Origin: Octopus vulgaris
Taxonomy: Eukaryota
Length of the DNA stretch: 64,000 nucleotides
Assembly (NCBI GenBank): GCA_951406725.2
Contig: OX597826.1
Location: 21,080,001-21,144,000 of the forward strand
Direction: 5' to 3'
A program made the position numbers and the translations under genes. Under the pieces are notes generated by a model that worked only from the letters and a program-made list of their open reading frames with translations, was not told the DNA's origin and did no database searches. Below, piece by piece: positions 433 through 56,386 of the stretch; the stretch's first letter is position 1, and each line of letters starts with the position of its first letter.

Positions 433-877
<445 letters not shown>

Positions 878-895
878 ATATGTGTGTGTATGTAT

Positions 896-940
<45 letters not shown>

Positions 941-944
<4 letters not shown>

Positions 945-1209
945 ATAAAGGGCTTAGTAAAATAAATTACTTTGCCACATACTGAACTCATTAGAAATAG
1001 CAGCCCAAAAAAATTTTTTTAGCCATTTCTAATACTTAAAGAAAATTTCTCTCAGATAGTGTTTACTCAAAATAGCTATTTTGAGTAAACACTATCTGAG
1101 AGAAATTTTCTTTAAGTATTAGAAATGGCTAAAAAAATTTTTTTGGCTGCTATTTCTAATGAGTTCAGTATGTGGCAAAGTAATTTATTTTACTAAGCCC
1201 TTTATAAAA
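941..1209. repeat. Spacerless ~270-bp palindrome in (TA)n, with ~90-bp unpaired tail to ~1301
   Basis: 941-1075 is the reverse complement of 1076-1209 apart from a 1-bp indel; centre aatag|ctatt. Confidence 0.95.
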
Positions 1210-1300
1210 TGTAATATTTTGAATTCGCCTTAAATGGTCCCTTTACATACTGAATACTTGGTGAAATTGATTAATAATTAATTAATTTTACCCTCAATTG

Positions 1301-1470
<170 letters not shown>

Positions 1471-1471
1471 G

Positions 1472-1509
<38 letters not shown>

Positions 1510-1510
<1 letters not shown>

Positions 1511-2802
1511 GAGGGGCGTTCAATAAGTAATGCCCCTGACCCACTTCCCACAGCAGTAGAGCAACGAAACTTGGCACAGTTATTAGTCTTTTTCTACATA
1601 GAAACCACCCAGAGTTACGCATTTCTCCCATCGTTTGATGCAGCTCTGGAGACCTTTTTTTTTTTTAAAGACCCCAGCTTGGTCCTCCAACCACGACGTG
1701 ACTTCAGAAATCAAGGCTGCATCATCTGGGAAACGCTTTCCTTTCAAAAACAACATCATGGCTGGGAAGAGGTGAAAATCCGAGGGTGCAAGGTCAAGAG
1801 AGTAGGGGCATGGGGGAGGAGTTCATAGCCGCACGCTTGTGCTTCTGATCTGGCGACCATCGAGTTGTGGACCGGAGCGTTGTCCTGCAGGAGGAGGATG
1901 CCTTTGCTGATCTTGCCCCGCCTCTTGATTTTGATAGCTTCTCTTAATTTCATCAAAAGTGAAGCATAATAGGCTCCTGTAATTGTGGTACCCCTTGCCA
2001 GGAAATCTGTCATCACTACTCCGTCCTGGTCCCAGAAGACTGTGAGCATGACCTTGCTAGCGGAGGGCTGCACCCCTGCCTTCTTTGGAGGAGGTGAGTC
2101 ACGGTGCTTCCACTGCATTGACTGGGCTTTTGTCTCTGGATCATAGTGATGGACCCAGGTTTCATCCTGTGTAATCAGTCTTTTGAAAAATTTTGACTCA
2201 TCTTCTTGGCACATCTCCAAATTCATCCTCGAGCACTCGACGCGTTCTTGCTTCCAGAAAGGTGTGAGCAACCTGGGAATCCATCTGGCAGACACCGTTT
2301 GCATATGCAAATGGTCATGAATGATTGGTTTCCACAGACCCGGTACTAATCTTGACCTCATGGGCTATTTGGCGAATAGTTATGCGTCGATCTTCCAAAA
2401 TGGCAGCCTCAACTTGATGGACAGATGCCTCATCAATAGCAGTAGGAGGGCGACCAGATCTGGGAGCTGTTTCCATAGAGTTCCGACCATGTTTGAATTC
2501 ACAATGCCAGCGTTTTACAAGGTCATATGATGGGGCATCATCACCATAAGTTACTTTCATTTCATCAAAAGTCTCCCGTGGTGTGCGTCCTTTCAAATAT
2601 AAAAAGTGGATCACTGCCCGACACTCAACAGGCTCCATTTCACACTTGACTCAGTTCAAACACCTGTAAATCAGAAACCACAATTAGTTCAGAGCTGTAA
2701 TTTACCACTTAATCTATAGAGATATAAATAATTGCACATGCAATTTCAGCTAGATCAAACAACTGCAAGTGGGTCAGAGGCATTACTTATTGAACGCCCC
2801 TC

Positions 2803-2803
<1 letters not shown>
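1510..2803 (-). mobile_element. Near full-length mariner DNA transposon inserted in (TA)n
   Basis: TIRs cgaggggcgttcaataagtaatgcccctgacccactt / aagtgggtcagaggcattacttattgaacgcccctcg, TA flanks, 1294 bp, internal transposase. Confidence 0.97.
1583..2638 (-). pseudogene. Frameshifted mariner (DD34D-type) transposase
   Basis: ORFs 2315-2638 and 1756-2361 carry GRP, WIPRLL, TQDETW and LLQDNAPVH; [10 protein letters not shown] and the C-terminal RWEKCV..GG.YVEKD are in shifted frames. Confidence 0.93.
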
Positions 2804-2847
<44 letters not shown>

Positions 2848-2876
2848 AATATGTACATATTTACATAAAAGACTAA

Positions 2877-3140
2877 AGACTTCTTCGGTGGCGAATGACC
2901 ATACATTTGCAGCTAACAAGTTCCCCTCCGGTGCACAGGTCCGCGTAAGATTGTTTGTAGAAGACTAGCAGTCACCCATACATACTAGTCTCCCCTCTCC
3001 GTGGCACCAATATTGTCCAAGGGAAAGTTAAAGGACGATACAGCTTGGCACCAGTGACTTTGAAACTCATTTGCGACGTAAAATAAAGCACGGCTTCATG
3101 ATTGTAAGCCCGATGCTCTAACCATTGAGCCATACACCTT

Positions 3141-3141
<1 letters not shown>
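2877..3141 (-). mobile_element. Degenerate tRNA-derived SINE (family B)
   Basis: Aligns by eye with 6151-6490 (gaatgaccat, gatacagcttggcacc, tgagccat..accttc) with internal deletions. Confidence 0.75.
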
Positions 3142-3375
<234 letters not shown>

Positions 3376-3467
3376 CAGTGCATCCCTCTAGAATGTATAT
3401 CTGCGTGTTTTTTTATTCTGATTATGTTTTCGTGTTTGTATGTGTGTATTTATGTATATGTGCCTAC

Positions 3468-3498
<31 letters not shown>

Positions 3499-4273
3499 TA
3501 CTCGCAGACACATCGCATAGACGCAAATATACACACACATTGGCACACACGCGTCCTCACACACAAACACACACACACAAAAACACACACACACACACAC
3601 ACGCACATACACACATGTACAATTAGTTAAAATATACGAGGGTTTTGAAAAAGCTAGATTTATTTGTATTTGCTTAAATGTTTTGTTTTTAAAAACTTTA
3701 TTCGGACAATTAGGATAAATTCATGACGAAATACTAACGGAAATCATTAGCAGCGCGTTCAGTCATGCTTCACTGCTAACCACTGTCAGATATACTGTGC
3801 AGAAATGCCTGCTTATCTGGTAGTCATTAGAACGAGCGCAATCCTTGATAACCAGCACTTTCTACTATCAAACAAAGTATCTAATCCTGCCATAGACACG
3901 AGTAAAAGTGCCAGTATCTTATTGCAAGCCACATTCTCGTATCTAATTGTATAATTCTGGAACTTAAACAGAATTTAAATGTCTGTTATTTTCTAATTTA
4001 AAACAAATGTTTTTGTCAATTTGTTGGCAACGGCTTAAATTGCTCACAATGTATCTGTGTGGGTTTGAAAAAACGCATGTCAGGCGATAGATAATGAGCC
4101 ATATGAACGTGCGTTATTTAAACGAAATACACTCTTAATTATGAGGCAGATTTGACCCTAAAATGAAACCTGCCACAAGCAAATTTACTGTCTGTATTTA
4201 TTAGCAGCATTGATAATAAGTTAACATGCTTCTATAAAGTATGGAGATTGTTTGGAAATTCATAGAATTCTTC

Positions 4274-4394
<121 letters not shown>

Positions 4395-4692
4395 ACATTA
4401 TCGAAACACTTGCCCAGATATATTTTCCTGATTTATCTATCTAATTACGCTAAATTCAACCTTGCTATTTGCAATGTCCAATTTCTATTTAATTTTAGAT
4501 TCTCGCTATCATCATATTTCCTCGGTTGAAGGCCGTAAACATCACATGTTTCTTATTAAATACAAAACAGATCTGAATGTCTAATTTAATGGATATGATT
4601 ACTAAAATGTTCGCAAGTTTCCACCGAAATTACAGTAAAAATAGATTTTTGGCACAAAAAAGTTAAATTTTGAAAACCTCATCTGTGTGCGA

Positions 4693-4774
<82 letters not shown>

Positions 4775-5365
4775 TTACAATTTTGTGATTAATGTCCCAC
4801 AACTTTGACTAAAGAATGACTACTTCCATGCGTCCGCCTTATCATTCTCTCTCAATTTTTTATTGTTTTAATTTGTCTTCCAAACTAGAATCTTCTTTCT
4901 CTTTTTAAAGCTTTATTCGATTGTGAATATTTATCTCCTTTGGAAATAATTTGATACCCACTCGCTGAATACTTTTCTTAACTTATCTTTCAAAGTAGAA
5001 TTACCATTTTTAATGTGATTCAAGAACTTCATGTTAGTAAACAACTGGAATATATTTGGTAAATGCCAAAATCTTCTGGCAATGAAGTTGCATGTATTAT
5101 TTCAGGTGTTGCTCGTTTTATAGAACATCTCCACAACTGAATCCGTCACTGTAGATTTTAACCAACATTGGACGTGACACATGAGTGTAAACGTTTTGAC
5201 GTTCTTTGAAATAGCTTTATGGATAAATATCGTATATAAATACTGGGTGTATACAAGGTGTATACAGATGCCCACACATACAGGGTTGACTAAACTCAAT
5301 CGTATTTCTATATTTTATAGTACAGCGTCTAGCATTGAATTACACTTGTTTAAGAGAACTAAAAC

Positions 5366-5412
<47 letters not shown>

Positions 5413-5413
5413 T

Positions 5414-5488
<75 letters not shown>

Positions 5489-5492
<4 letters not shown>

Positions 5493-5690
5493 GGCGAATA
5501 CTCGTTATAAATATCACCACCAGTGGCCTAGCATGTATAAAAAGTCAATAGACAACATATTCGTATTTCAAAATAGAAAATTACCTGTTAAAGGGTAATT
5601 TTCTATTTTGAAATACGAATATGTTGTCTATTGACTTTTTATACATGCTAGGCCACTGGTGGTGATATTTATAACGAGTATTCGCCACCC
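5489..5690. repeat. Perfect inverted repeat, 97-bp arms, 8-bp spacer, in (TA)n
   Basis: 5489-5585 is the reverse complement of 5594-5690; spacer tgttaaag. Confidence 0.96.
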
Positions 5691-5705
5691 TATATATATA
5701 TATAT

Positions 5706-6113
5706 GTACCTTATGAATATGTTCTTAGCATTATCGAAGTTTCAGCTCGGCATTGTATCTATTGCTGACTGTAAATGCGCCTGCGCGCGATATTTGAAAA
5801 ATTATAGCATATAATGATGGGACACGTGTTATCTTGTCTCTGAATTATAAGTTAGTTGTTTAGGCCGGTTACTGACGAGAATTCGCCTGGTATATAATAT
5901 GGTCTTGCTAAATTATCTATTAAAAGATGGCAAGCGATATTATTCGCTCAAAAAATTCGAAACCATGGTATAACCGTTATATAACAAGGTAAAGGTTTTT
6001 ATTTTTCATTTACTTCGAAATTTGCTATAAAATTGTGGTTTTTGGTCGTGTTAGCTGCTATTTCTAGCATGTAAAAATTACCTGTTAAAGGGTAATTTTC
6101 TATTTTGAAATAC

Positions 6114-6114
<1 letters not shown>
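5706..6114 (+). mobile_element. Non-coding HHR-bearing element (Penelope-like pLTR or retrozyme) between (TA)n tracts
   Basis: Contains the hammerhead at 5866-5976; its last 41 bp (6074-6114) are identical to 5577-5617 of the adjacent palindrome. Confidence 0.7.
5866..5976 (+). ncRNA. Type I hammerhead ribozyme with a large stem-II insertion
   Basis: Stem I cggtta/taaccg; core CTGACGA 5872-5878; stem II gaatt/aattc around 70 nt; GAAAC-catg-GTA 5959-5970. Confidence 0.88.
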
Positions 6115-6150
<36 letters not shown>

Positions 6151-6152
<2 letters not shown>

Positions 6153-6490
6153 AGACCCCTTTTTGATCATGAATGACCATGGGATTGCCTTTAGAAAGTT
6201 CCCTTTCGAGGCACAAGTCCAGGCAAGGTTGTTTATGGAAGACCAACAGTCGCCCATGCATACCAGCCTCTCCTCTCCACACCACTGATGTTAACCAAGT
6301 GAAAGGCAAAGGGGCCGATACAGCTTGGCACCTGTGACGTCGCAACTCATTTCTACAGCTGAATGAACTGGAGCAACGAGAAATAAAGTGTTTTGTTCAA
6401 GAATACAACACGCAACCCGGTCCGGGAATCGAACTCACAACCTCATGATCGTAAGCTCCACTCTCTAACCGCTGAGCCATGCACCTTCAC
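6151..6490 (-). mobile_element. tRNA-derived SINE (family B)
   Basis: Minus-strand head gtgaaggtgcatggctcagcggttag...gagttcgattccc (A and B boxes); ends in (TA)n. Confidence 0.85.
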
Positions 6491-7749
6491 ATATATATGT
6501 ATATATGTGTGTGTGTATGTGTGTGTTTTATATTGAAACAAAATCCGATTAATTCACCAGTAATTTATTGATTATATCATTCAAATACGGTTTTAGTTGA
6601 ATAATATTAAGGCCGCAATTTACTCACACACAGCATCTTCAGAGCTTTGTCACAAATTCAATTATTAACTAAATTGAAAACTGTTACCATTTTTGAAGAG
6701 GAATGGTCCCTAGCTACATTTTGGCATTAAAAAAATTGAGATTTGGTCCAGTAGAAAAATATTTACATCAAAATTTGTAGCAACGTTATAGGAGAGTAAG
6801 TAACACCTCCAATCAAGTTTAGATATAGCTTTTATATTTTAAAAGCAAAATATATTTATCTTAGCTTCAATGATAGAAGAAAGCATGGGGAATTTCATAG
6901 TTTTGGTTTCATGCAACAAAAATTTGTATCAAAAAAGTTGTGAGGTAAAATACCATGCAAAAAAATATAATTAAGACAAAAAATTGGATTTAAGTATAAT
7001 TGACTTTTTTATTTTAAAAGCAAACTATTATTTAATTAAGCTTAAATGATAGAGCTCAATTCGAGGGATTTCGTGGCATCAATTTCACGCAATGAAGTTT
7101 TGAATGAAAAAAGTTATGAGTGTTTGTTTCTGAAATTTGAGGGCGACAATATAATTCTGTACTTTTTTACGAATATAGTTCTACAAGGGGACTTTTAATA
7201 TATGTCACCGGCATCATTAAAGTAAGGAAAAATTTCTCAACAACACCGCTAATTTGCAATTATTTTAGCTAATCTTGTTCTTATTTTTTAGATTAAAACT
7301 TTTTGTATTATTTTAATTCTGTAATAATAATAATCCAATCACAAAACTGAAAAAAATAAAACTGTTATTGAGAAATTTATTAAATTCATTATTCAATTTT
7401 CAATAAGATAAAATCTTAAATTGTTAATTGACACATTATTAATTAGCATAATAGCATAACCTGGAAAAGAATGGATTACATGGGAAAATGCGAGCAAGAG
7501 AAATAAGATTATAAACCTAGAAAAGTACAGGACAAATTATTACATCTGGTAAAGTACAGAACAAGAAAATTTCTACTTAAAATTAATTATGTGGAATTTT
7601 TCGAAATTCTTCGGATCAATTAATTATGTCTTAGCTGATAGAATAAGAAATTATTTTTAACGATTAAAATATAAAATTCAAAATAATTACAGATGTTTAT
7701 GATAATGAAATTGATTTTCTGAGAAACGACTTCGAAAAGTATTCGATTG

Positions 7750-7895
7750 CTCGGCAGAATCGCTAGAGGGGCCGACAAAATGATCTGCAGTGATGGTCCC
7801 GACTCTTTACGTTCTGAGTTCAATTCCTGCCCAGGTCAACGCTGCCCTTTATCATGCTGAGGTCGATACAATAATGTACTTGCGGGGTCGATTGC
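7750..7895 (+). mobile_element. Degenerate SINE (family C)
   Basis: ggcagaatcgctag...acgttctgagttcaa...ggtcgatacaataatgtac, matching the better copy at 45931-46166. Confidence 0.7.
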
Positions 7896-7919
7896 AACCA
7901 CGCACAGCAAGCAGCGCCG

Positions 7920-9110
7920 AATGATGGGAGTGAACGGTAACCCCGCGGAACCATTTCATACCATGTGCTCAATCTGTCAGGAGTGAAGTCTCTCACCTCT
8001 AAGTGCTGGGTCTCCAGCCACTTCTGTTGAAGATGGAACAGTTGAGAAGCGAAGTGATTAAATTGGTCGGAGTCTGGTTCGATCCGCACCGCCGGGTAGA
8101 CCGGTACTGAGACGAGGTAGAAATAAGCAAGATAGAAATAAGTCGAGAGAAAGCTTTCTCATAAGTGTCGAGCAGAGGTAAAGGATGCCAACATCACCTT
8201 CATCATTGATAAGATTGGAATGCTTGCTCTTCTGCTTCTTGTGAAAATAATGCGCTCCATCAGTCAAACCACGGCACTTCGAACCTTTTTGCAAGGCAAG
8301 CTTGGCATACTGTGGCTGCTGACGTACACACACGCTGAGGTTACACCGCTTGTAGAGATTCGTGGATGGTGAGCGGATGTGTCCTCCGTTTGTAGACACA
8401 TCTTTTCACAGCACATCTTTCGACGCAAAAGCGATTGCGGGGTTTGGCTCCTGGAATGCTGTTAGGCATTCAGTGAAGTTCAAATCGAGCAACATATAGA
8501 AAAGTGGAGGATGAAAAAAACAGTGATGTCCTGGAGAAGACCATAGGGTTCGACTATTATGGATAATTTCTAGAAACATTTCGCCACTTAGGGACAATCC
8601 CTGTTTGCGATAAAGTATGTAGGCATGCAAGTATGGTCATTGGAGCCTCTCCGTGAAGCGCGTACAGCGATGTGACCGTACCGCATGCATTCGTTCAGTA
8701 TCCGAGCATTATTGATTTATGGAATTATGTTGAACAGCTGTTGTTGTCTGTCGGATAGATCCGGTTATTTGCTAAGATCATTCCGAAACCATTCAGTCAC
8801 CTTCCTTTAACAGGACAGAGTAAGCAATGCCCTGGCGGCAGTGAAGAAGGTTCTGTAGTGGACGACGCTGAAAAGTTTAAGAATAGTCACCTTCCTCTTT
8901 GGTCAAGCCTCCATCGACATTTTAAGTTACACTTATAAAGTAAGGTGAGGGTGGAGAGGAAGGTGAGGGTGGAGAGGAAGGTGAGGGTGGAGAGGAAGGT
9001 GAGGGTGGAGAGGGAGGTGCTCTCCTTCAGCTGAATTTGTCGAAAAGAGGGAGACCGTGGGAAAACGGTTAAAATAGATGGATCTTATCTAACATGTGTC
9101 CGAAGACTGA
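7920..9110 (+). mobile_element. Old, degraded 3' portion of an L1/Tx1-like LINE
   Basis: IKLVGVWFDP and RKLSHKCRAEV parallel ELLGVWFGP and RKLSLKGRAEV of the 13934-18815 element; KVRVEREVLS near 8940-9020 parallels KVRVGRQVLS. Confidence 0.75.
8942..9013 (+). repeat. 18-bp tandem repeat x4 (aaggtgagggtggagagg)
   Basis: Four exact copies inside the old LINE. Confidence 0.95.
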
Positions 9111-9812
9111 AGAAAGTTAACTTGGGTCTGTGGTGTCCCTTGACTGACCCTAGTTCGAGATCCTCCTGTATCAGGCGGGCTGCCTCGTCCATATATTTAT
9201 ATATTCGTATATTATGTATATTTTAGACGCTTTTTCTTCCTCATCCAATGTAAACACTCACACCATATGTAACTTGGCTTTCTAAAACACTCTTCAACCG
9301 ACGCCTTTGCGACAAAAAAAATGTTGCTAATTGTCGTCGTCGTCGTCGTCGTCACCCGAACTATTTCTTTCATCTCTTTCACCAGCTGAGTGTTTACAAA
9401 CCAACAAGGGTCCTCAGCTTGGTCGGTCGATCTGCTAGGTATAACAACCAAATTTCTCTCAAACAACACCCTGCATATCGTTTTTAAAAAGGCAGGCACA
9501 CTGGATAATTTAGTCATATACATACATTATATCAAACTGAAAGATAAGAGGGATTCGGTTAGAATACTTTCAAACATTTAATCTGTTCGATTGTAGTTGG
9601 CCTAGGGTTAAATAACAACACATACATACGAATGCGAAACTTCCTCAATAAATTGAATGGTTTCACTGCATCATTATATTTCAGTCTTGATATCGATGAG
9701 TTTGATTTTTCACACAAAATGAACGAATAAATTTAAATCTGTGTTCATAAATGGAAATATTTCCCTTAGAAAATCATTTGAGTTTGAGAGAGACAGACAA
9801 AGAGCACGGAAC

Positions 9813-14286: not shown

Positions 14287-17200
14287 TCATAGGATTATGC
14301 TCAAGATCGCTTCGTCATTCATACGTGCCATCCTTGCTACATTCACCCATCTTTTTTTAAAACATTCGCTAGACAAAACTTGCCTCCCTACTCTCACTTT
14401 CCTTTTCAAGTGATACTTGAAGTTGATGAGAGATTGACCAGAGAAGAAAGTGTTTGTCTCCAATCCTTTCAGACGCGTCCACCAGATACATTCTTTCGCC
14501 ATAGCCACAAGGATGATGAAAATAGCTCTTCGTTCCCGTTTGAAGGAAGGAGGCGTGACAATATTGACGATAGACACGGCTGATAAACCGACTCATCCTA
14601 CACGTGACAGCAGTTGTTCGACATAAGCTCACAGGTCGGAAATTGTTGGACACTGCACGAGTGCGTGCAGAACGGTTTCGTCGCTCTGACCGCATCTCAG
14701 GAAGGTCGGCCCCATGTTTCTCGAGCCGTGTCTGTAGAGCTTATCCCGAACGGGTAGCGCTTCTCGGTAGCACTGCCAGGCCAGGGATCTCTGGAAGTTG
14801 TCCATGGGCCCTGGCCCGAAAGTCGTCCTGAACAGGCGGGTCAGGTATTCTTCGTCGACGTTCAGGTTTGCCCCGAGCTCGTCGCCGTACCTCCCATCCA
14901 CTAATCCCCTATAGAATGCTTTGGTTGTGTTGAAGTCACTCAAGGTCGACCCGGGACGGCATAGTTGCTTGAGAGCAACGCGACACTCACAGTGTCATTC
15001 GCGCTTTCTCGGCCTCTTTTTCATCCACGACTGCAGTTCAGTCATGGAGACGAGTTGCGGGAAAGCGTGCCTCACAAACGGCGATGACACCTGTTCACCG
15101 TCGTCTACGAAGAGCCTGAGATGTCGCAGTCTCAGCGCGGGTCTGCGCATCATCAACCACGGCATGCCCAGTCCTCCTTTTAACGGGTGTTGACAACAAA
15201 TGGATCGCCTGACCATCGGGACGCATCCTTTCCAGAAGAAGCGAAAGGGAATGCGTTCTAGTTAGGTGATGGTAGGGTCGGGGCAAGGCACGACGGTCAG
15301 GCGGTAGTAGATGGCGGACGCGATGTACGAGTTCGCCACCTCCGCCCGACCTTTTAGGGACAGTTTCCTCTCGGCCCATTGCCGGGCGAGAGTGACCACC
15401 CTACTCGTTATTTCGTTCCAGTTCTTCTCCGTTTGGAGGTCTGGACCAAACCAGACCCCGAGCAACTCGACCGGACCGTCGGTCCAGCGTCCCACGACGG
15501 AGGCGCTGGTGGACGGCATGGGCTTGCTTCTCCAGATGCCGAGTCACAAGCCCACTGACTTTTCCCGGTTGATTTTCGCTCCTGTCACCGCTTCGTAGCT
15601 TTTCAGTGTCTCGATGTGCTCATGGCTAGACACTATGACGGTGACGTCGTCCGCGTATGCAGACACGCTCGTCCCGCATCCTAATTCTTGCGGGATGCCA
15701 CTCAGAGTTGCCAGCTTCCGCAATAATGGCTCGAGAGTCAATACGTACAGAAGCGACGAGAGGGGGCATCCCTGACGGACCGAACGTGCAATGTCGAAAG
15801 GTCTCGATAGATGTCCATTCACGCGAATTACCGAACGGATGCCTGTGTACAAAACGGCTATCCAGCTGCGGAAGACGGGACCGAAACCAGCCGCTCTGAG
15901 GACAGCCTCCAAGTAACGATGGTCTACCCTATCGAAAACTATCGATTGATCCAAATTGATCAGCGCCGCACCCATGCCAGGTTCCTTAACTACTCTGTCT
16001 ATGATGTAGCGCATCAGGTGGAGGTTGTCATGGATGCTCTGGCCCGGCACGGTGCACGTTTGCGCCTTGCCGACCAGTTTCTCGATGACAAGCGCCAACC
16101 TCTTGGCTAACACCTTTGCCAAAAATTTCAAGTCTGCATTAAGCAGAGTGATGGGCCTAAAGTTATCTATTACATTCCCCTTGTTTAGATCTTTCTTCAG
16201 CAGTGTTACGGCTCCTCGGCTCACAAAACCAGGAATGCTCCCGTTTTGCTGCCAGTGGCAGTACACCGCTGCCAAGACCTCTCCAAACAAGTCTGGCATA
16301 CAACTGTAAAGCTCGTGGGGTAGACCATCCAAACCCGGCGATTTGTTCTTCGAGTATTCTGCCATCGCGTCCTGCACTTCCGCCGCCGTGATGGCACCTT
16401 CGCAGCGCCCTGCCTCTCTTGTCGAGAGTCGTGGTAGGCTGTATAGGTAGGCACTGAAGTCCACCCTACGTTCTTGGCCGCCACTCGTCCCGAACAGTCG
16501 GGCAAAATTCTGTTGAAAGGCCTCAAACATTTTACTCGGCTCGAGCAATTCGCGCCCCTGTTCATCTGCCACCCGGGCCTCTCTCGCGCCTCCAACACCT
16601 TCGTTCCTTAGAGTACGCATCCTAGCTCTGACAACACACCCTTCGTGTTTGGTGTTGAAGTGTTGGTCGAGGGCCAACCTCGCCGCCAAAACGTCGGATG
16701 CGATGCCGCTTCTAATTGCCTCTTCTAGCTTCTAGCTCACCCTCTACTCTGTTTCTATCTATGGCTAGTGCTTTGCTGTACCTAATCGCTTCTGCGAGGC
16801 CAAACCACCATTTGTTGTTGATGATGGCTCCCGTCAAAGCCCTCTTTACTAGTGTGCTAATCGGTCTCTAAAAACCTGTCTCGATGGGAAAGACGCGTTT
16901 AGTTTCCAGTATCCGGGACCCTGCCAATGTCACAAGTTTGTGATCCGTGTAGCTGACTATGTGCAATTGTGGACATCCTACGCTATCTCTATCTACTGTA
17001 CTACACAGTATCCTATCTAGATACGGTCTCGACCTGATGCGGTTGCTCCATGTCCACGTTGGCGCATTCAGGTGGTCGAGTCGGTACCTGTCAGACAGTT
17101 GAAAGCGTCTGAGCAGGTTTCTGAGGCATTTGCATCCCCGTCTATTCCTATCTCTGCCCACGTAGTCTAAGGTAGCATTCCAATCCCCCACTAAGAGTAA

Positions 17201-17605
17201 AGGACGAGACGTTCCCAAGAATACTTCTATACGTTGAAAGAAATCCGCCCGACCTGTTAAAGGCGGTGCGTAGACTGATACGAGTCGAAAAGCGCACCCA
17301 TTGCTGCCGTCGACATCCAGGATGATCAGTCTACCCTTCGGGTCTACGAATATTGTCTTTACTTTGAGATCCAGACGCTTGCGAAAAAGTACCGCGGTGC
17401 CACTACCGCCCATTCTTGACAGACAGGGGGGAAAATAAATGTTAAACTGTCCGCCAAACATGGTCTTTAGGGTCCGCGGATTGTTGAGTCTGGTCTCACT
17501 TATGGCAATAATTTCTAACTTGTGTGACTTTATGTCATTTAAGAGGTACCCTTGTTTCCAAGGGGACCCCAAGCCACGCGCATTTACACAACCAATCTTG
17601 ATCAT
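14287..17605 (-). pseudogene. Disrupted LINE ORF2 (AP endonuclease, reverse transcriptase, zinc knuckle)
   Basis: NARGL, ISET, VGDWNA, YLDR, TDH (APE); SPGLDG, FRPITLLNADLK, RQGCPLS, YADD (RT); RCG..DETVLHALVQCP; broken by several stops and frameshifts. Confidence 0.95.
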
Positions 17606-17649
17606 AATCCTAGTGAATTAGAATACAAGCGAAAGGAACAGAGGGTTAC

Positions 17650-18779
17650 TTACTGCTCGGAAGTTTTTGCTTTCTCCTCCTTTGGTTTGTCCTCGAGGAG
17701 ATCCCAGTAAAGTTTCTTCGTGAGGTATTTTTGGCATTTACCAACCGCACTGGGGAAAATACCTTTTAGTGTCTGGTGCAGACTTCTGGAGATATGTAAT
17801 ATTTTGATGTGATCCGGTGGTGTTGTGTATGGGTGATTGTTTGTTTTTATGTCATCTTCTGTTATGTTTGTTTTTGATTTGATGTATTCCATCAAATTTG
17901 TGTTTTTGGTGTCTATAGTTGTGAGCATGTTTGCTGTATATATTTTTGTGGTGTTTGTGTGGCTGTTGTTTGTGGTGGGTTTCGAAATGTCTTCGGGAGA
18001 TGTATTTACCCCTGCTTTGTTTGTGTTTGCATTTGGTTTAGTTGTGTTTCTGCACTTTTTTTCCTTCCTTTTCTAGCTATTTGCCATTCCTCGCTGGTTT
18101 CGTCTTCCGACGGATTTTCTGAGGGATCAGGAATGGGTAGGGGTATGTTGTAGGCTTCTATGTATATCTGTGTAAGTAGTTGTGTTGTTGTTTTCGTTGC
18201 TGTTGGTTGTTGAGTGTTTGTGTGTGGTGAGTGCGGTATAGGGGATGGGAATCAGTTTTTGTATATTTTTTTTTGTTTTTCTGTTCCTTTGGTTCTTGCT
18301 GTTGTTGGTGGTGTTGGTATTTTCTCAGGTGTTTTCTCAGGTGTTGTATAATTTTTGGTTGTTGATGGATTAGCTTGGTGTGCTTCTTTTGTCGTCTTCT
18401 GAGTTGATGGCGGTGTGGGTAGTAGTGCTTTTTTCTCGGAGTGGTTGTTGTTGTTGCTGTGCAGTGGTTGGACACTTCTTTTTCAAATGTGTTTCGCTTC
18501 CGCACAAATAGCAACGTGGTCGCCTGCCCTCTACCACTACATAGAGTTTGTAGCCTTCTGACAGTTCTATAGTGGTGGGTATCTTTTCTCTTGTTTCATC
18601 CAGTCTTTTCGTTCTAGAACAGCGATTTCAAGAATGTTTGTCTCTGCCATTTCAAAGCAGATGGCAGAGACTAACCATTGTATTTCGACTTCAGGTGGTA
18701 CATTTTTTATTTGGACTTTCGTCACCCTCTGGCCTAAATAAGTTGGTATCATAACCAAGTCGTCTGAATGCAACTCCAA
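17650..18779 (-). pseudogene. Disrupted LINE ORF1 with T/Q/P/K-rich low-complexity region
   Basis: Same-strand ORF fragments immediately upstream of ORF2; an RPRCYLC-like knuckle is readable near 18505-18525. Confidence 0.65.
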
Positions 18780-36619: not shown

Positions 36620-36723
36620 ATAATATAATATAATATTATATATATATATGTACTTCAAATTAATATCCAGAAAATGGAGAAGTAGCATTAATATAATTCA
36701 TTAATCGCAATAATTCAACATGT

Positions 36724-36808
36724 TCTCTTACAGCTGTTTCGATTTTGCCCAAAAGAATTAAATTCCAGTAATTAAAACATTTTACTGCGCAAAATCTCGT
36801 CAGAGGAG
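36724..36808 (-). ncRNA. Type I hammerhead ribozyme with 8-bp stem II and enlarged loop II
   Basis: Minus strand ctcct-CTGACGA-gattttgc-[40 nt]-gcaaaatc-GAAAC-agct-GTA-agag; stem I imperfect. Confidence 0.8.
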
Positions 36809-36918
36809 TAAAAATGATATATCGTTAGGTTATTACATGTTATTCTTCCAAAACACGTCAATAGTCTGTGTGTGCATGTGTGTGTGTGTAATGCACTATA
36901 TATATATATATATTATAT

Positions 36919-38024: not shown

Positions 38025-38670
38025 TTATTTAACATCGTCAAAAGTTTGTATTTTAGCAGAAATTAAAGTTATCTTTTCTTTTCTCTTCTTGTGGTGTTGT
38101 AGAAATTTGTTGAGGGGGTATAAAATTTCAGCACAATGACGTATAAAACGTCGATAGAAATTAGCTAATCCGAGAAATTGTCTGAGCTTTCTTAATGAAA
38201 CAGGAACTGGAATTTTTACGATAGCCTTAACCTTTTCTGGCAAAGGCCTAATTCCATCCTTATCAATGGTGTGTCCAGGGAAAGCGAGAGAAGGCACACC
38301 GAAAATACATTTGGTGGCGTTGATACTAATTTTGTATTGAGAAAGCCTTTCGAAAAGTTGCTTCAAATGAACTACATGTTCTTTCTCGGAAGATCTAGCG
38401 ATGAGAAGATCGTCGATATAGGCGCAGACGAAATCTAATCCACGTATTACTTTTTCAATGAAACGTTGAAAAGTACTGGCGGCGTTCCTTAGTACAAAGG
38501 AAATTCAAATGACTCGAATGGAATTGCAATAGCCGTCTTCGGAATATCATTTGGGTTCACATGAATCTGATGGTATGCTCGTATCAAATCTATCTTTGAG
38601 AAAATAGTGCAACCGTGCAGAAAAGTTACAAAATCTTGATTATGTGGTATAGGATACCTATCTGAAATGG
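38025..38670 (-). mobile_element. Ty3/Gypsy reverse transcriptase fragment
   Basis: YPIP, FSKIDLIRAYHQI, IPKTA, NAASTFQRFI, AYIDDLLIA, KCIFG, LRQFLGLANFYRRFI. Confidence 0.93.
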
Positions 38671-55829: not shown

Positions 55830-56058
<229 letters not shown>

Positions 56059-56123
56059 TAATTTACTCTGCTATGTATTGAGTAACTTATTTACTGTGGT
56101 TAACCCCGACTCAACCCGGGACC

Positions 56124-56170
<47 letters not shown>

Positions 56171-56173
<3 letters not shown>

Positions 56174-56364
56174 GAAGTTAAATGTTATGGCTGGTTATAG
56201 TGTGACTCTTGATTTCATATCTATAATGCGACTCATCAGATTCAAACAGTCGAAATCGCATAACTTCGGCCATTTCAGTCTGACGAGTCGCCTATACTGC
56301 TAAGCACTTTATAAGTACGAAACCAATTGTTACTCTATGACCGGCCATGAAATTTAACTTCCTA
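56171..56364. repeat. Diverged inverted repeat carrying two outward-facing hammerhead motifs
   Basis: taggaagttaaat/atttaacttccta and gcgactcatcaga/tctgacgagtcgc; CTGACGA 56280-56286 with GAAAC 56319-56323; minus-strand CTGATGA at 56233-56239. Confidence 0.8.
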
Positions 56365-56386
56365 AAATATATTACTGCTCTAATGC

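What the first reader, a model, noticed from the sequence alone, without database searches (positions are those of the whole stretch)
5489..6114. Palindrome pivots on a hairpin native to the neighbouring HHR element: a snap-back synthesis footprint
Seen: the centre of the 97-bp-arm palindrome (5577-5617) is identical over 41 bp to 6074-6114, where the same hairpin (aaaattacc-tgttaaag-ggtaatttt) sits in a non-palindromic context. The right arm continues past the point where the HHR element stops. Inferred: a truncated cDNA folded back at this hairpin and primed its own second strand before joining to (TA)n, which would explain inverted pLTRs.
Basis: partly seen in the sequence, partly recalled or inferred. 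Interest (0 to 1): 0.8.

Follow-up and report, generated by a model that had tools for sequence, protein, structure and literature searches.

The report
Ribozyme retroelement insertion with snap-back arm
A perfect 97-base DNA palindrome turns on a small hairpin that belongs to a high-copy repeat carrying a predicted hammerhead ribozyme, and it likely records one reverse-transcribed insertion whose new DNA strand folded back on itself, a clean example of a mechanism already proposed for Penelope-type elements rather than a new one.

Summary
Arms 5489-5585 and 5594-5690 are perfectly complementary, 5577-5617 equals 6074-6114, and the pivot is the longest perfect hairpin (9 bp; next 6) in the 497-nt unit. 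Contigs from four public runs revise the anatomy. Other copies run from the 6114 end on into the right arm, and (weaker support) from the arm across the short (TA)n into 5706. So 5577-6114 is most likely one ORF-less insertion of 1.08 units of a retrozyme-like, Penelope-derived repeat, with a 97-nt inverted arm at its 5' end. Best model: target-primed reverse transcription, cDNA snap-back at the hairpin, then re-annealing of the unit's internal TA run to the target (TA)n. Self-priming at palindromic junctions was proposed for Penelope elements in 2013, and cDNA snap-back is reported for R2. The general claim fails where I could test it: six other head-to-head junctions of the family lie elsewhere, and the four readable ones have 0-3 bp of native stem. 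Same-hairpin pivots could not show in that table. This exact copy was not seen in the laid runs, so an artefact is not excluded. Leads: one lap round a circular RNA, and many copies apparently starting at the ribozyme cut site.

The parts
5369..5488 (.). left (TA)n tract with a CA patch; inferred target half to which the snap-back arm was joined
   Evidence: TRF; sequence
5489..5585 (-). inverted arm, 97 of 97 bases complementary to 5594-5690; inferred snap-back product
5577..5602 (+). pivot hairpin: 9-bp stem 5577-5585/5594-5602 with 8-nt loop 5586-5593; longest perfect hairpin in the unit
5577..6114 (+). direct part of the insertion, 538 nt = one 497-nt unit plus a 41-nt terminal repeat; longest stop-free frame of the circularised unit is 59 aa
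   Evidence: (joints and pieces)
5594..5690 (+). right arm; in other family copies it is the native continuation of the 6114 end, often with about 20 extra nt near 5603-5617
   Evidence: tables 5, 5c, 7: 6099>5603, 6091>5624 (X5); 6086>5621, 6101>5617 (X6)
5642..5651 (+). 10-nt inverted repeat partner of 6064-6073; closes the unit next to the hairpin in the predicted RNA fold
   Evidence: sequence; folds
5691..5705 (+). inner TA run, likely internal to the element (TATA-like) and the microhomology used to join the inverted arm to the target
   Evidence: pieces 2, 10, 11 cross it with 12-15 non-TA letters on the short side (below the tool's 31-letter bridging rule); row '5691 left out 4' in 3 of 4 runs
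5866..5976 (+). predicted type I hammerhead: stem I 6 bp, core at 5872-5878 and 5959-5963, stem II 5 bp with 70-nt loop, palindromic helix III, predicted cut after 5970
   Evidence: not found by Rfam
6074..6099 (+). native copy of the hairpin, 15 nt upstream of the 3' junction
   Evidence: variants with G-U pairs seen in family contigs, tables 3, 7
6115..6150 (.). right (TA)18 tract; inferred primer for reverse transcription; other copies also end at about 6114 followed by TA
   Evidence: (piece 8; X6 loose end behind 6121 with another flank; X3 loose end behind 5614)

Best explanation
5489-6114 is most likely one young insertion of an ORF-less, high-copy repeat with a predicted hammerhead ribozyme (a retrozyme-like relative of Penelope pseudo-LTRs), whose perfect 97-bp inverted arm was probably made when the cDNA 3' end folded back at the element's own 9-bp hairpin. 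Steps: (1, inferred) a Penelope-type RT/GIY-YIG protein acting in trans nicks (TA)n and primes reverse transcription at 6114, 15 nt 3' of the hairpin, an end point shared with other copies. (2, inferred) RT copies 538 nt of a circular or multimeric RNA, through an uncut or re-ligated ribozyme site, and stops at the second pass of the hairpin, somewhere in 5577-5585. (3, geometry shown, chemistry inferred) The cDNA end pairs in the stem and is extended, by RT or a host repair polymerase, along the cDNA for 97 nt into the unit's internal TA run. (4, inferred) That self-complementary TA end anneals to the left (TA)n, and fill-in fixes the palindrome. A strong hairpin is one route to such arms in this family, not a requirement.
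For: Exact arms, exact 41-nt repeat at offset 497, and the switch point at the stem foot. The pivot is the longest perfect hairpin of the unit; 28 of 497 positions offer a terminal stem of 5 bp or more, and the five ends 5577-5581 rank 6-15 of 497 for pairing of the cDNA's last base. 600-1438 contigs laid per DNA run and 88 in the putative RNA run show a large family. Four 'go back' joints in 2 of 4 runs tie the 6114 side to the right arm. Three shown pieces plus an indel row in 3 of 4 runs cross the inner TA into 5706, with 1-10 differences from the window. Recurrent 3' end at about 6114+TA and scattered 5' joins fit priming at the 3' end of the ribozyme-sense strand. The minor allele C5616 is shared by both arms and 6113. 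The window's other two long palindromes have the same layout: (TA)n, short inverted arm, longer direct copy, (TA)n. The layout matches published PLE structure (PMC8557442, PMC3846280), and cDNA snap-back before 5' joining is reported for R2 (PMC11371274).
Against: No RT/GIY-YIG partner was found: 17 of 100 window ORFs were scanned, and none had a GIY-YIG hit. No listed piece spans the stretch, and no laid contig in any of the 4 runs carries the window's C5949, so this copy is unconfirmed. None of the shown pieces meets the tool's 31-letter rule for bridging the inner TA; only 32 of 3375 pieces were shown. Six other head-to-head junctions among the 15 of 18 joints shown do not use this hairpin; four readable ones have 0-3 bp of native stem. 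Other subfamilies continue differently after the arm end and between 6023 and 6054 (table 7), so a closed 497-nt circle is not shown for the whole family. The ribozyme fold is not the predicted minimum (5.4 kcal/mol above it). A DNA-break fold-back after insertion would leave the same sequence.
Confidence: 0.58

Rival explanations
1. DNA-level fold-back after insertion: a break in or near the left (TA)n was resected, the 3' overhang folded at the hairpin, was extended by a repair polymerase and was rejoined through TA microhomology.
For: It gives the same final sequence. Fold-back inverted duplications at breaks through short microhomology are documented in yeast (PMC11724301, abstract) and beside L1 integration sites (10.1101/2024.12.14.628481, passages). 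Other family junctions have only 0-3 bp of homology.
Against: The window has 45 merged (TA)6+ tracts but only 3 long perfect palindromes. All 3 have the inverted-plus-longer-direct layout; 2 hold hammerhead-like cores, and none was seen in the mariner or the SINE-like repeats. The yeast inversions are mostly 5-34 bp.
Confidence: 0.15
2. Self-priming or template switching on an antisense RNA, or a second priming event, made the inverted arm before or during integration (Arkhipova 2013 model; twin-priming type).
For: Arkhipova 2013 infers self-priming on an antisense template from palindromes at head-to-head junctions. Four of six other junctions have long spacers (about 50-310 nt, from the joint coordinates), which a second priming event or template switch could also give.
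Against: The fixed 3' end and variable 5' ends lie on the ribozyme-sense strand, so the first-strand cDNA already supplies the antisense molecule. L1-type twin priming (recalled) inverts without duplicating, whereas here the arm duplicates the direct copy base for base.
Confidence: 0.1
3. The palindrome is an assembly or library artefact (fold-back chimera, or arms homogenised by polishing).
For: Arms are 100% identical. No laid contig spans the stretch, and the window's private bases (C5949; T5893 in 3 of 4 runs) were not seen.
Against: The arm is short and flanked by non-inverted sequence on both sides. Tight fold-backs and long-spacer inversions of the same family, some with diverged arms, are in contigs of other studies; one junction is in 3 of 4 runs. 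The palindrome at 942-1209 has a 1-base indel between its arms.
Confidence: 0.07
4. Two separate events: a snap-back palindrome landed in the (TA)n beside an older HHR copy; or the palindrome is a TA-flanked MITE and 6064-6114 a deleted relative.
For: TA runs flank the palindrome on both sides; some copies do end at the arm's TA (piece 9); bridging of the inner TA is below the tool's strict rule.
Against: The same 5706 start follows the arm and TA in several diverged contigs, with varying TA length, in all four runs taken together. The arm is joined to the 6114 side in other copies. Both 41-nt copies share a minor allele.
Confidence: 0.07
5. A rolling-circle DNA element (Helitron/Helentron-like) that overran its terminal hairpin gave the 1.08 units.
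For: A hairpin 15 nt from the 3' end, a 10-nt inverted repeat and an internal microsatellite resemble such elements (recalled features).
Against: A type I hammerhead motif (2 hits in the window against 0 in 20 block shuffles), (TA)n flanks and head-to-head arms point to PLE/retrozyme biology. The 3' end is not CTRR (motif recalled).
Confidence: 0.03

Closest known systems
Metazoan non-LTR retrozymes (Cervera and de la Pena 2020, PMC7229834; Li et al. 2026, 10.64898/2026.07.22.740005)
   Same: ORF-less, AT-rich repeat unit with a type I hammerhead, more than one unit long, structured RNA; proposed to be copied from circular RNA by PLE machinery.
   Different: The unit is 497 nt against about 220-390 nt in the examples I read (that paper allows 150 to over 1000 nt). 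There is only one ribozyme at this locus, and its loop II is 70 nt. The inverted 5' arm and (TA)n flanks are not discussed there: 'inverted' and 'microsatellite' have 0 hits in PMC7229834.
EN+ Penelope-like elements with inverted pLTRs (Penelope/Neptune/Naiad; PMC3846280, PMC8557442, PMC4209133)
   Same: Inverted 5'-truncated copy abutting the direct copy; inverted and direct pLTR overlapping by a short palindrome (15 bp in Pen2a_Av); hammerhead with palindromic helix III; (TA)n preference; TATA-like run in the pLTR; self-priming proposed as the cause.
   Different: No ORF here, and the autonomous partner is unknown. Naiads lack canonical hammerheads. The native hairpin is visible twice in one insertion, which pins the pivot to the base.
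R2 'snap-back' 5' junctions in PRINT (Zhang et al. 2024, PMC11371274; PMC11331408)
   Same: The cDNA 3' end primes synthesis on the cDNA before joining the upstream target, so target DNA is fused to antisense element sequence.
   Different: That is an engineered R2 system in human cells and a minor junction class; not a PLE, and no TA re-annealing.
Anolis Poseidon in vitro (Frangieh et al. 2024, PMC11167929)
   Same: AT-rich target cleavage; RT starts at fixed internal sites in a stem-loop downstream of the hammerhead; two 3' ends.
   Different: Its tail is 30-40 nt, while the two end points here are about 73 nt apart. In the parts I read, second-strand steps are left unvalidated, and ribozyme cleavage was dispensable in vitro.

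Membership tests
Non-LTR retrozyme | Type I hammerhead motif in the unit | tested here: met
   Motif with stems I, II and III at 5866-5976; own scan with a recalled core consensus; Rfam negative
Non-LTR retrozyme | Non-coding, low-GC short repeat unit | tested here: met
   497-nt period; longest stop-free frame 59 aa; GC 0.31 for 5001-6000
Non-LTR retrozyme | Tandem units with two or more ribozymes at some locus | tested here: inconclusive
   Only 1.08 units here; head-to-tail adjacencies seen in contigs, but no dimer spanned
Non-LTR retrozyme | Self-cleavage and circular RNA in vivo | not testable with these tools
   Only contigs were available; the RNA label of X14 is a guess
Autonomous EN+ Penelope-like element | ORF with telomerase-like RT and GIY-YIG endonuclease | tested here: not met
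   No ORF in the unit; 17 of 100 window ORFs scanned, none GIY-YIG
PLE-mobilised insertion | Direct partial tandem plus inverted 5'-truncated copy | tested here: met
   definition from PMC8557442
PLE-mobilised insertion | Insertion into (TA)n | tested here: met
   other copies also abut TA (table 7)
PLE-mobilised insertion | Optional 30-40 nt tail between two RT start sites | tested here: inconclusive
   Ends at about 6114 and at the arm's TA, 73 nt apart; the second is confounded with inverted-arm ends
PLE-mobilised insertion | Unit homologous to the pLTR of an identified autonomous PLE | not testable with these tools
   No genome held; no hits in prokaryotic or viral collections
Tc1/mariner-type MITE | Inverted repeats form the fixed termini of a discrete element | tested here: not met
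   The arm is an internal part of a longer unit, and inverted arms vary in extent between copies
Helitron/Helentron | 3' CTRR end after a subterminal hairpin (recalled) | tested here: not met
   The 3' end at 6114 is not CTRR

The most novel reading that the evidence does not exclude
The locus is a frozen record of one lap of reverse transcription round a 497-nt circular ribozyme RNA. RT starts 15 nt past the hairpin, returns to its own start, overruns by at most 41 nt, stalls at that hairpin, snaps back, and re-enters the target through the element's internal TA run. The far more numerous short copies would come from the self-cleaved linear RNA and begin just after the ribozyme cut: depth rises about 20-30-fold across 5970 in all four runs, and 5 of 15 shown joints land at 5981-5991. 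If so, this family gives thousands of natural records that separate circular from cleaved templates and show in vivo ribozyme cleavage shaping PLE-type insertions.
Probability: 0.22. Interest if true: 0.65.

Novelty: new member of a known kind. Interest (0 to 1): 0.38.

Why it matters
How Penelope-type elements make their tandem and inverted ends is stated as open in Craig et al. 2021, and second-strand steps are unvalidated in the one in vitro study. This locus shows the pivot hairpin in both native and folded-back context within one insertion, and offers a simple way to finish integration at (TA)n. The family is large enough for a genome-wide test of pivots, start points and template form. 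It does not establish a new mechanism: self-priming was already proposed, and my partial census says strong hairpins are not generally needed. Practical point: such palindromes look like TA-flanked MITEs or microRNA hairpins to annotation tools.

Tried and rejected
Own-genome search: no genome held, so the genome-wide pivot census could not be run. Exact-pattern scans of metagenome, viral and prokaryotic genome contigs: 0 hits each. Rfam: no match at gathering level in the window; only sub-threshold microRNA-like matches to the palindromes and no hammerhead family. Earlier scan findings: none by place, sequence or words. Run search: no RNA holder listed on record, which says nothing on expression; I laid 4 of 24 listed runs, not the two top holders. 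Piece 9 (978 nt, ending exactly at 5594) was considered as a second same-hairpin palindrome and set aside, because a contig end there has other explanations. Depth was not used as copy number. A partial likeness of 5669-5701 to the hammerhead 5' half is too weak to call a second ribozyme. The RT fragments at 14.6-17.6 kb and 38.0-38.5 kb show no link to the element; I did not class them beyond Pfam. The host is probably a cephalopod, judged from recalled SINE and microsatellite features; no call established this. Literature: 9 searches showed no paper mapping PLE or retrozyme pivots onto native hairpins, or describing the one-lap model. Subscription papers such as Evgen'ev and Arkhipova 2005 and Arkhipova 2006, and all supplements, were not seen and may hold such models.

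Full report
OBSERVATION. The sequence and an exact check confirm the finding. Arms 5489-5585 and 5594-5690 are complementary at 97 of 97 positions (112 with the adjoining TA) around an 8-nt loop. 5577-5617 equals 6074-6114 over exactly 41 nt, at offset 497. In the 6074 copy the stem is 9 bp and stops there (A6073 faces C6100). In the palindrome, pairing goes on (G5576 with C5603), so the change from native to copied sequence is at the foot of the stem. Any cDNA end in 5577-5585 would regenerate the same product. In the 497-nt unit taken as a circle, this stem is the longest of 22 perfect hairpins of 5 bp or more (next longest 6 bp). One of 497 positions offers a 9-bp terminal stem and 28 of 497 offer 5 bp or more. 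This is one locus, tested after the fact.

THE RIBOZYME. A type I hammerhead motif lies on the + strand at 5866-5976: stem I 6 bp, stem II 5 bp with a 70-nt loop, a palindromic helix III, and a predicted cut after 5970. My scan, built on a recalled core consensus and loosened after seeing the sequence, gave 2 hits in the window and 0 in each of 20 block shuffles. Rfam found no hammerhead. The unit folds well as RNA (-125.4 kcal/mol, z -3.8, 0 of 100 shuffles as good). The ribozyme is not formed in the best fold, and forcing it costs 5.4 kcal/mol. Cervera and de la Pena 2014 (PMC4209133; first quarter of the text read) describe such short palindromic helix III motifs, working as dimers, in metazoan repeats and PLE pseudo-LTRs.

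RELATED COPIES. No genome is held. Twenty of 24 listed runs hold part of the region. I laid contigs of four runs from four studies on 5481-6122: 1164, 1438, 600 and 88 records, mostly 90-99% alike, so the family is large. Four results matter. First, joints 6099>5603 and 6091>5624 (X5) and 6086>5621 and 6101>5617 (X6) show that the HHR part natively runs on into the right arm, usually with about 20 extra bases. Second, pieces 2, 10 and 11 and the indel row at 5691 (3 of 4 runs) cross the inner TA run, with different TA lengths, into the same 5706 start. They carry 12-15 non-TA letters on the short side, so none meets the tool's 31-letter rule, and only 32 of 3375 pieces were shown. The two adjacencies together close a unit of 497 nt with no frame over 59 codons. 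So 5577-6114 is best read as one direct insertion of 1.08 units, and the inner TA as part of the element. Other subfamilies continue differently after the arm and between 6023 and 6054, so the circle is not shown for all members. Third, other copies also end at about 6114 plus TA (piece 8; a different flank in X6; depth in the last bin in all four runs), while 5' joins are scattered. That fits priming at the 3' end of the ribozyme-sense strand. Fourth, the hairpin is native in the family, often with G-U pairs (tables 3, 7); in the window's form it is fully Watson-Crick and so can fold as cDNA.

Of 15 joints shown (18 found), six are head-to-head junctions: 5523|5841 (in 3 of 4 runs), 5524|about 5661, 5526|about 6038, about 5557|5622, 5562|5983 and 5576|6040. 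Two are tight fold-backs and four have long spacers. Two have unknown letters between the sides and cannot be read. For the other four, native complementarity in the window's sequence is 0-3 bp (and my reading of table 5c), a level that 44% of positions reach. So fold-backs are common in this family and do not need a strong hairpin. Pivots at the window's own hairpin would align straight to the reference and cannot appear as joints, so clustering there is neither shown nor excluded.

IS THE LOCUS REAL? Not confirmed. No listed piece spans it, and no laid contig carries C5949 in any run, or T5893 in three. The copy is polymorphic, belongs to another individual or species, or has base errors. 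Against an artefact: the arm is short with ordinary flanks on both sides, the family shows such inversions in other studies, and the window holds two more long palindromes of the same layout (942-1209 with direct copy to 1301; 55928-56058 with direct copy to 56127), the first with a one-base indel between arms. Two or three private bases in about 400 nt are compatible with 97-bp arms that are still identical.

MECHANISM. Most likely (0.58): a Penelope-type protein in trans primes at the right (TA)n and copies 538 nt of a circular or multimeric RNA. It stops at the second pass of the hairpin, the cDNA snaps back, synthesis runs 97 nt into the internal TA run, and that self-complementary end anneals to the left (TA)n. 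Shown: the geometry, the native hairpin, the family adjacencies (second one weakly). Inferred: the enzyme, the template form, the order of events and which polymerase extends. Rivals: DNA-break fold-back after insertion (0.15), antisense-RNA self-priming or second priming (0.10), artefact (0.07), two separate insertions or a MITE (0.07), rolling-circle DNA element (0.03).

WHAT IS KNOWN. Craig et al. 2021 (PMC8557442; passages) describe the inverted 5'-truncated copy at the 5' end, (TA)n bias and Octopus PLE families, and call the origin of these structures undefined. Arkhipova et al. 2013 (PMC3846280; passages, abstract and Discussion) report an inverted pLTR overlapping the direct one by 15 bp, and 18- and 38-bp palindromes at pLTR 5' ends. 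They infer self-priming from palindromes at inverted junctions, on an antisense template. Zhang et al. 2024 (PMC11371274; passages) and PMC11331408 (passages) define cDNA snap-back junctions for R2. Frangieh et al. 2024 (PMC11167929; first half read) show internal RT starts in a stem-loop and find ribozyme cleavage dispensable in vitro. Cervera and de la Pena 2020 (PMC7229834; passages and Discussion) define non-LTR retrozymes and propose circular RNA as the RT template giving tandem cDNA. Li et al. 2026 (bioRxiv; first fifth and passages) link retrozymes to pLTRs. DNA fold-back at breaks: PMC11724301 (abstract) and 10.1101/2024.12.14.628481 (passages). An Octopus vulgaris repeat paper lists active Penelope families and has no hit for 'ribozyme' (PMC13282606; passages). 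In nine searches I saw no paper that maps such pivots on a consensus; older subscription papers and supplements were not seen.

VERDICT. The locus works like a PLE-mobilised insertion with a snap-back 5' junction. It is not an autonomous PLE, and it is probably a new retrozyme-like family, with tandem-ribozyme and circular-RNA criteria untested. Interest 0.38. The bolder reading (0.22) is a one-lap copy of a circular RNA beside many short copies that start at the ribozyme cut. Depth goes from 1373 to 45133 (X5), 4762 to 130244 (X3), 452 to 9287 (X6) and 40 to 988 (X14) between bins 5943-5964 and 5987-6008; 5 of 15 joints land at 5981-5991; 4 contigs have TA directly before 5978. The tool warns that depth is not copy number, and the window's copy is divergent just upstream, so this is a lead only.

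Noticed in passing
window 942-1301: Second long palindrome: about 134-bp arms, zero loop centred on AG|CT, one-base indel between arms, direct copy continuing about 90 nt to (TA)n; the left arm joins (TA)n at an AT-rich internal site. Shares a 16-nt stretch (15 of 16) with 6051-6066; no hammerhead core found.
   Followed up: partly
window 55928-56127: Third palindrome: 62-bp arms, 7-nt centre that is itself nearly self-complementary, longer direct copy, (TA)n both sides; the pivot sits just before a hammerhead-like core with an imperfect stem I and II.
   Followed up: partly
window 56171-56386: TA-flanked element with two hammerhead-like cores on opposite strands inside a diverged inverted repeat (66% over the region with flanks); may be an old snap-back product or a unit that spread as such.
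   Followed up: partly
window 36650-36890, minus strand: Another hammerhead-like motif (core at 36803, 8-bp stem II, palindromic helix III, weak stem I) between (TA)n tracts; no clear homology to the 497-nt unit.
   Followed up: partly
window 5965-6008: Contig depth rises 20-30-fold just 3' of the predicted ribozyme cut in all four runs, and many joints land there; could mean most copies come from self-cleaved RNA, or only that a high-copy subfamily differs upstream.
   Followed up: partly
window 6023-6054 and 5674-5690: Loose ends show subfamilies with other sequence between 6023 and 6054 (at least 110 nt in X14) and other continuations after the arm end; a possible route to the autonomous partner (table 7).
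   Followed up: no
window 5669-5701: Weak likeness to the hammerhead 5' half at 5869-5900 (13 of 16 in the core), beside a G-U-rich RNA hairpin at about 5657-5689; three of six inverted arms begin at 5653-5656, at its foot.
   Followed up: partly
window about 1510-2803: Degenerate mariner element on the minus strand (Transposase_1, HTH_48) with terminal inverted repeats, inserted in (TA)n.
   Followed up: no
window about 14300-17650 (minus) and 38028-38504 (minus): A broken LINE-like ORF set (APE endonuclease, RVT_1, zf-RVT) and a separate RVT_1 fragment with an internal 40-bp inverted repeat at 37931-37970/38375-38414.
   Followed up: no
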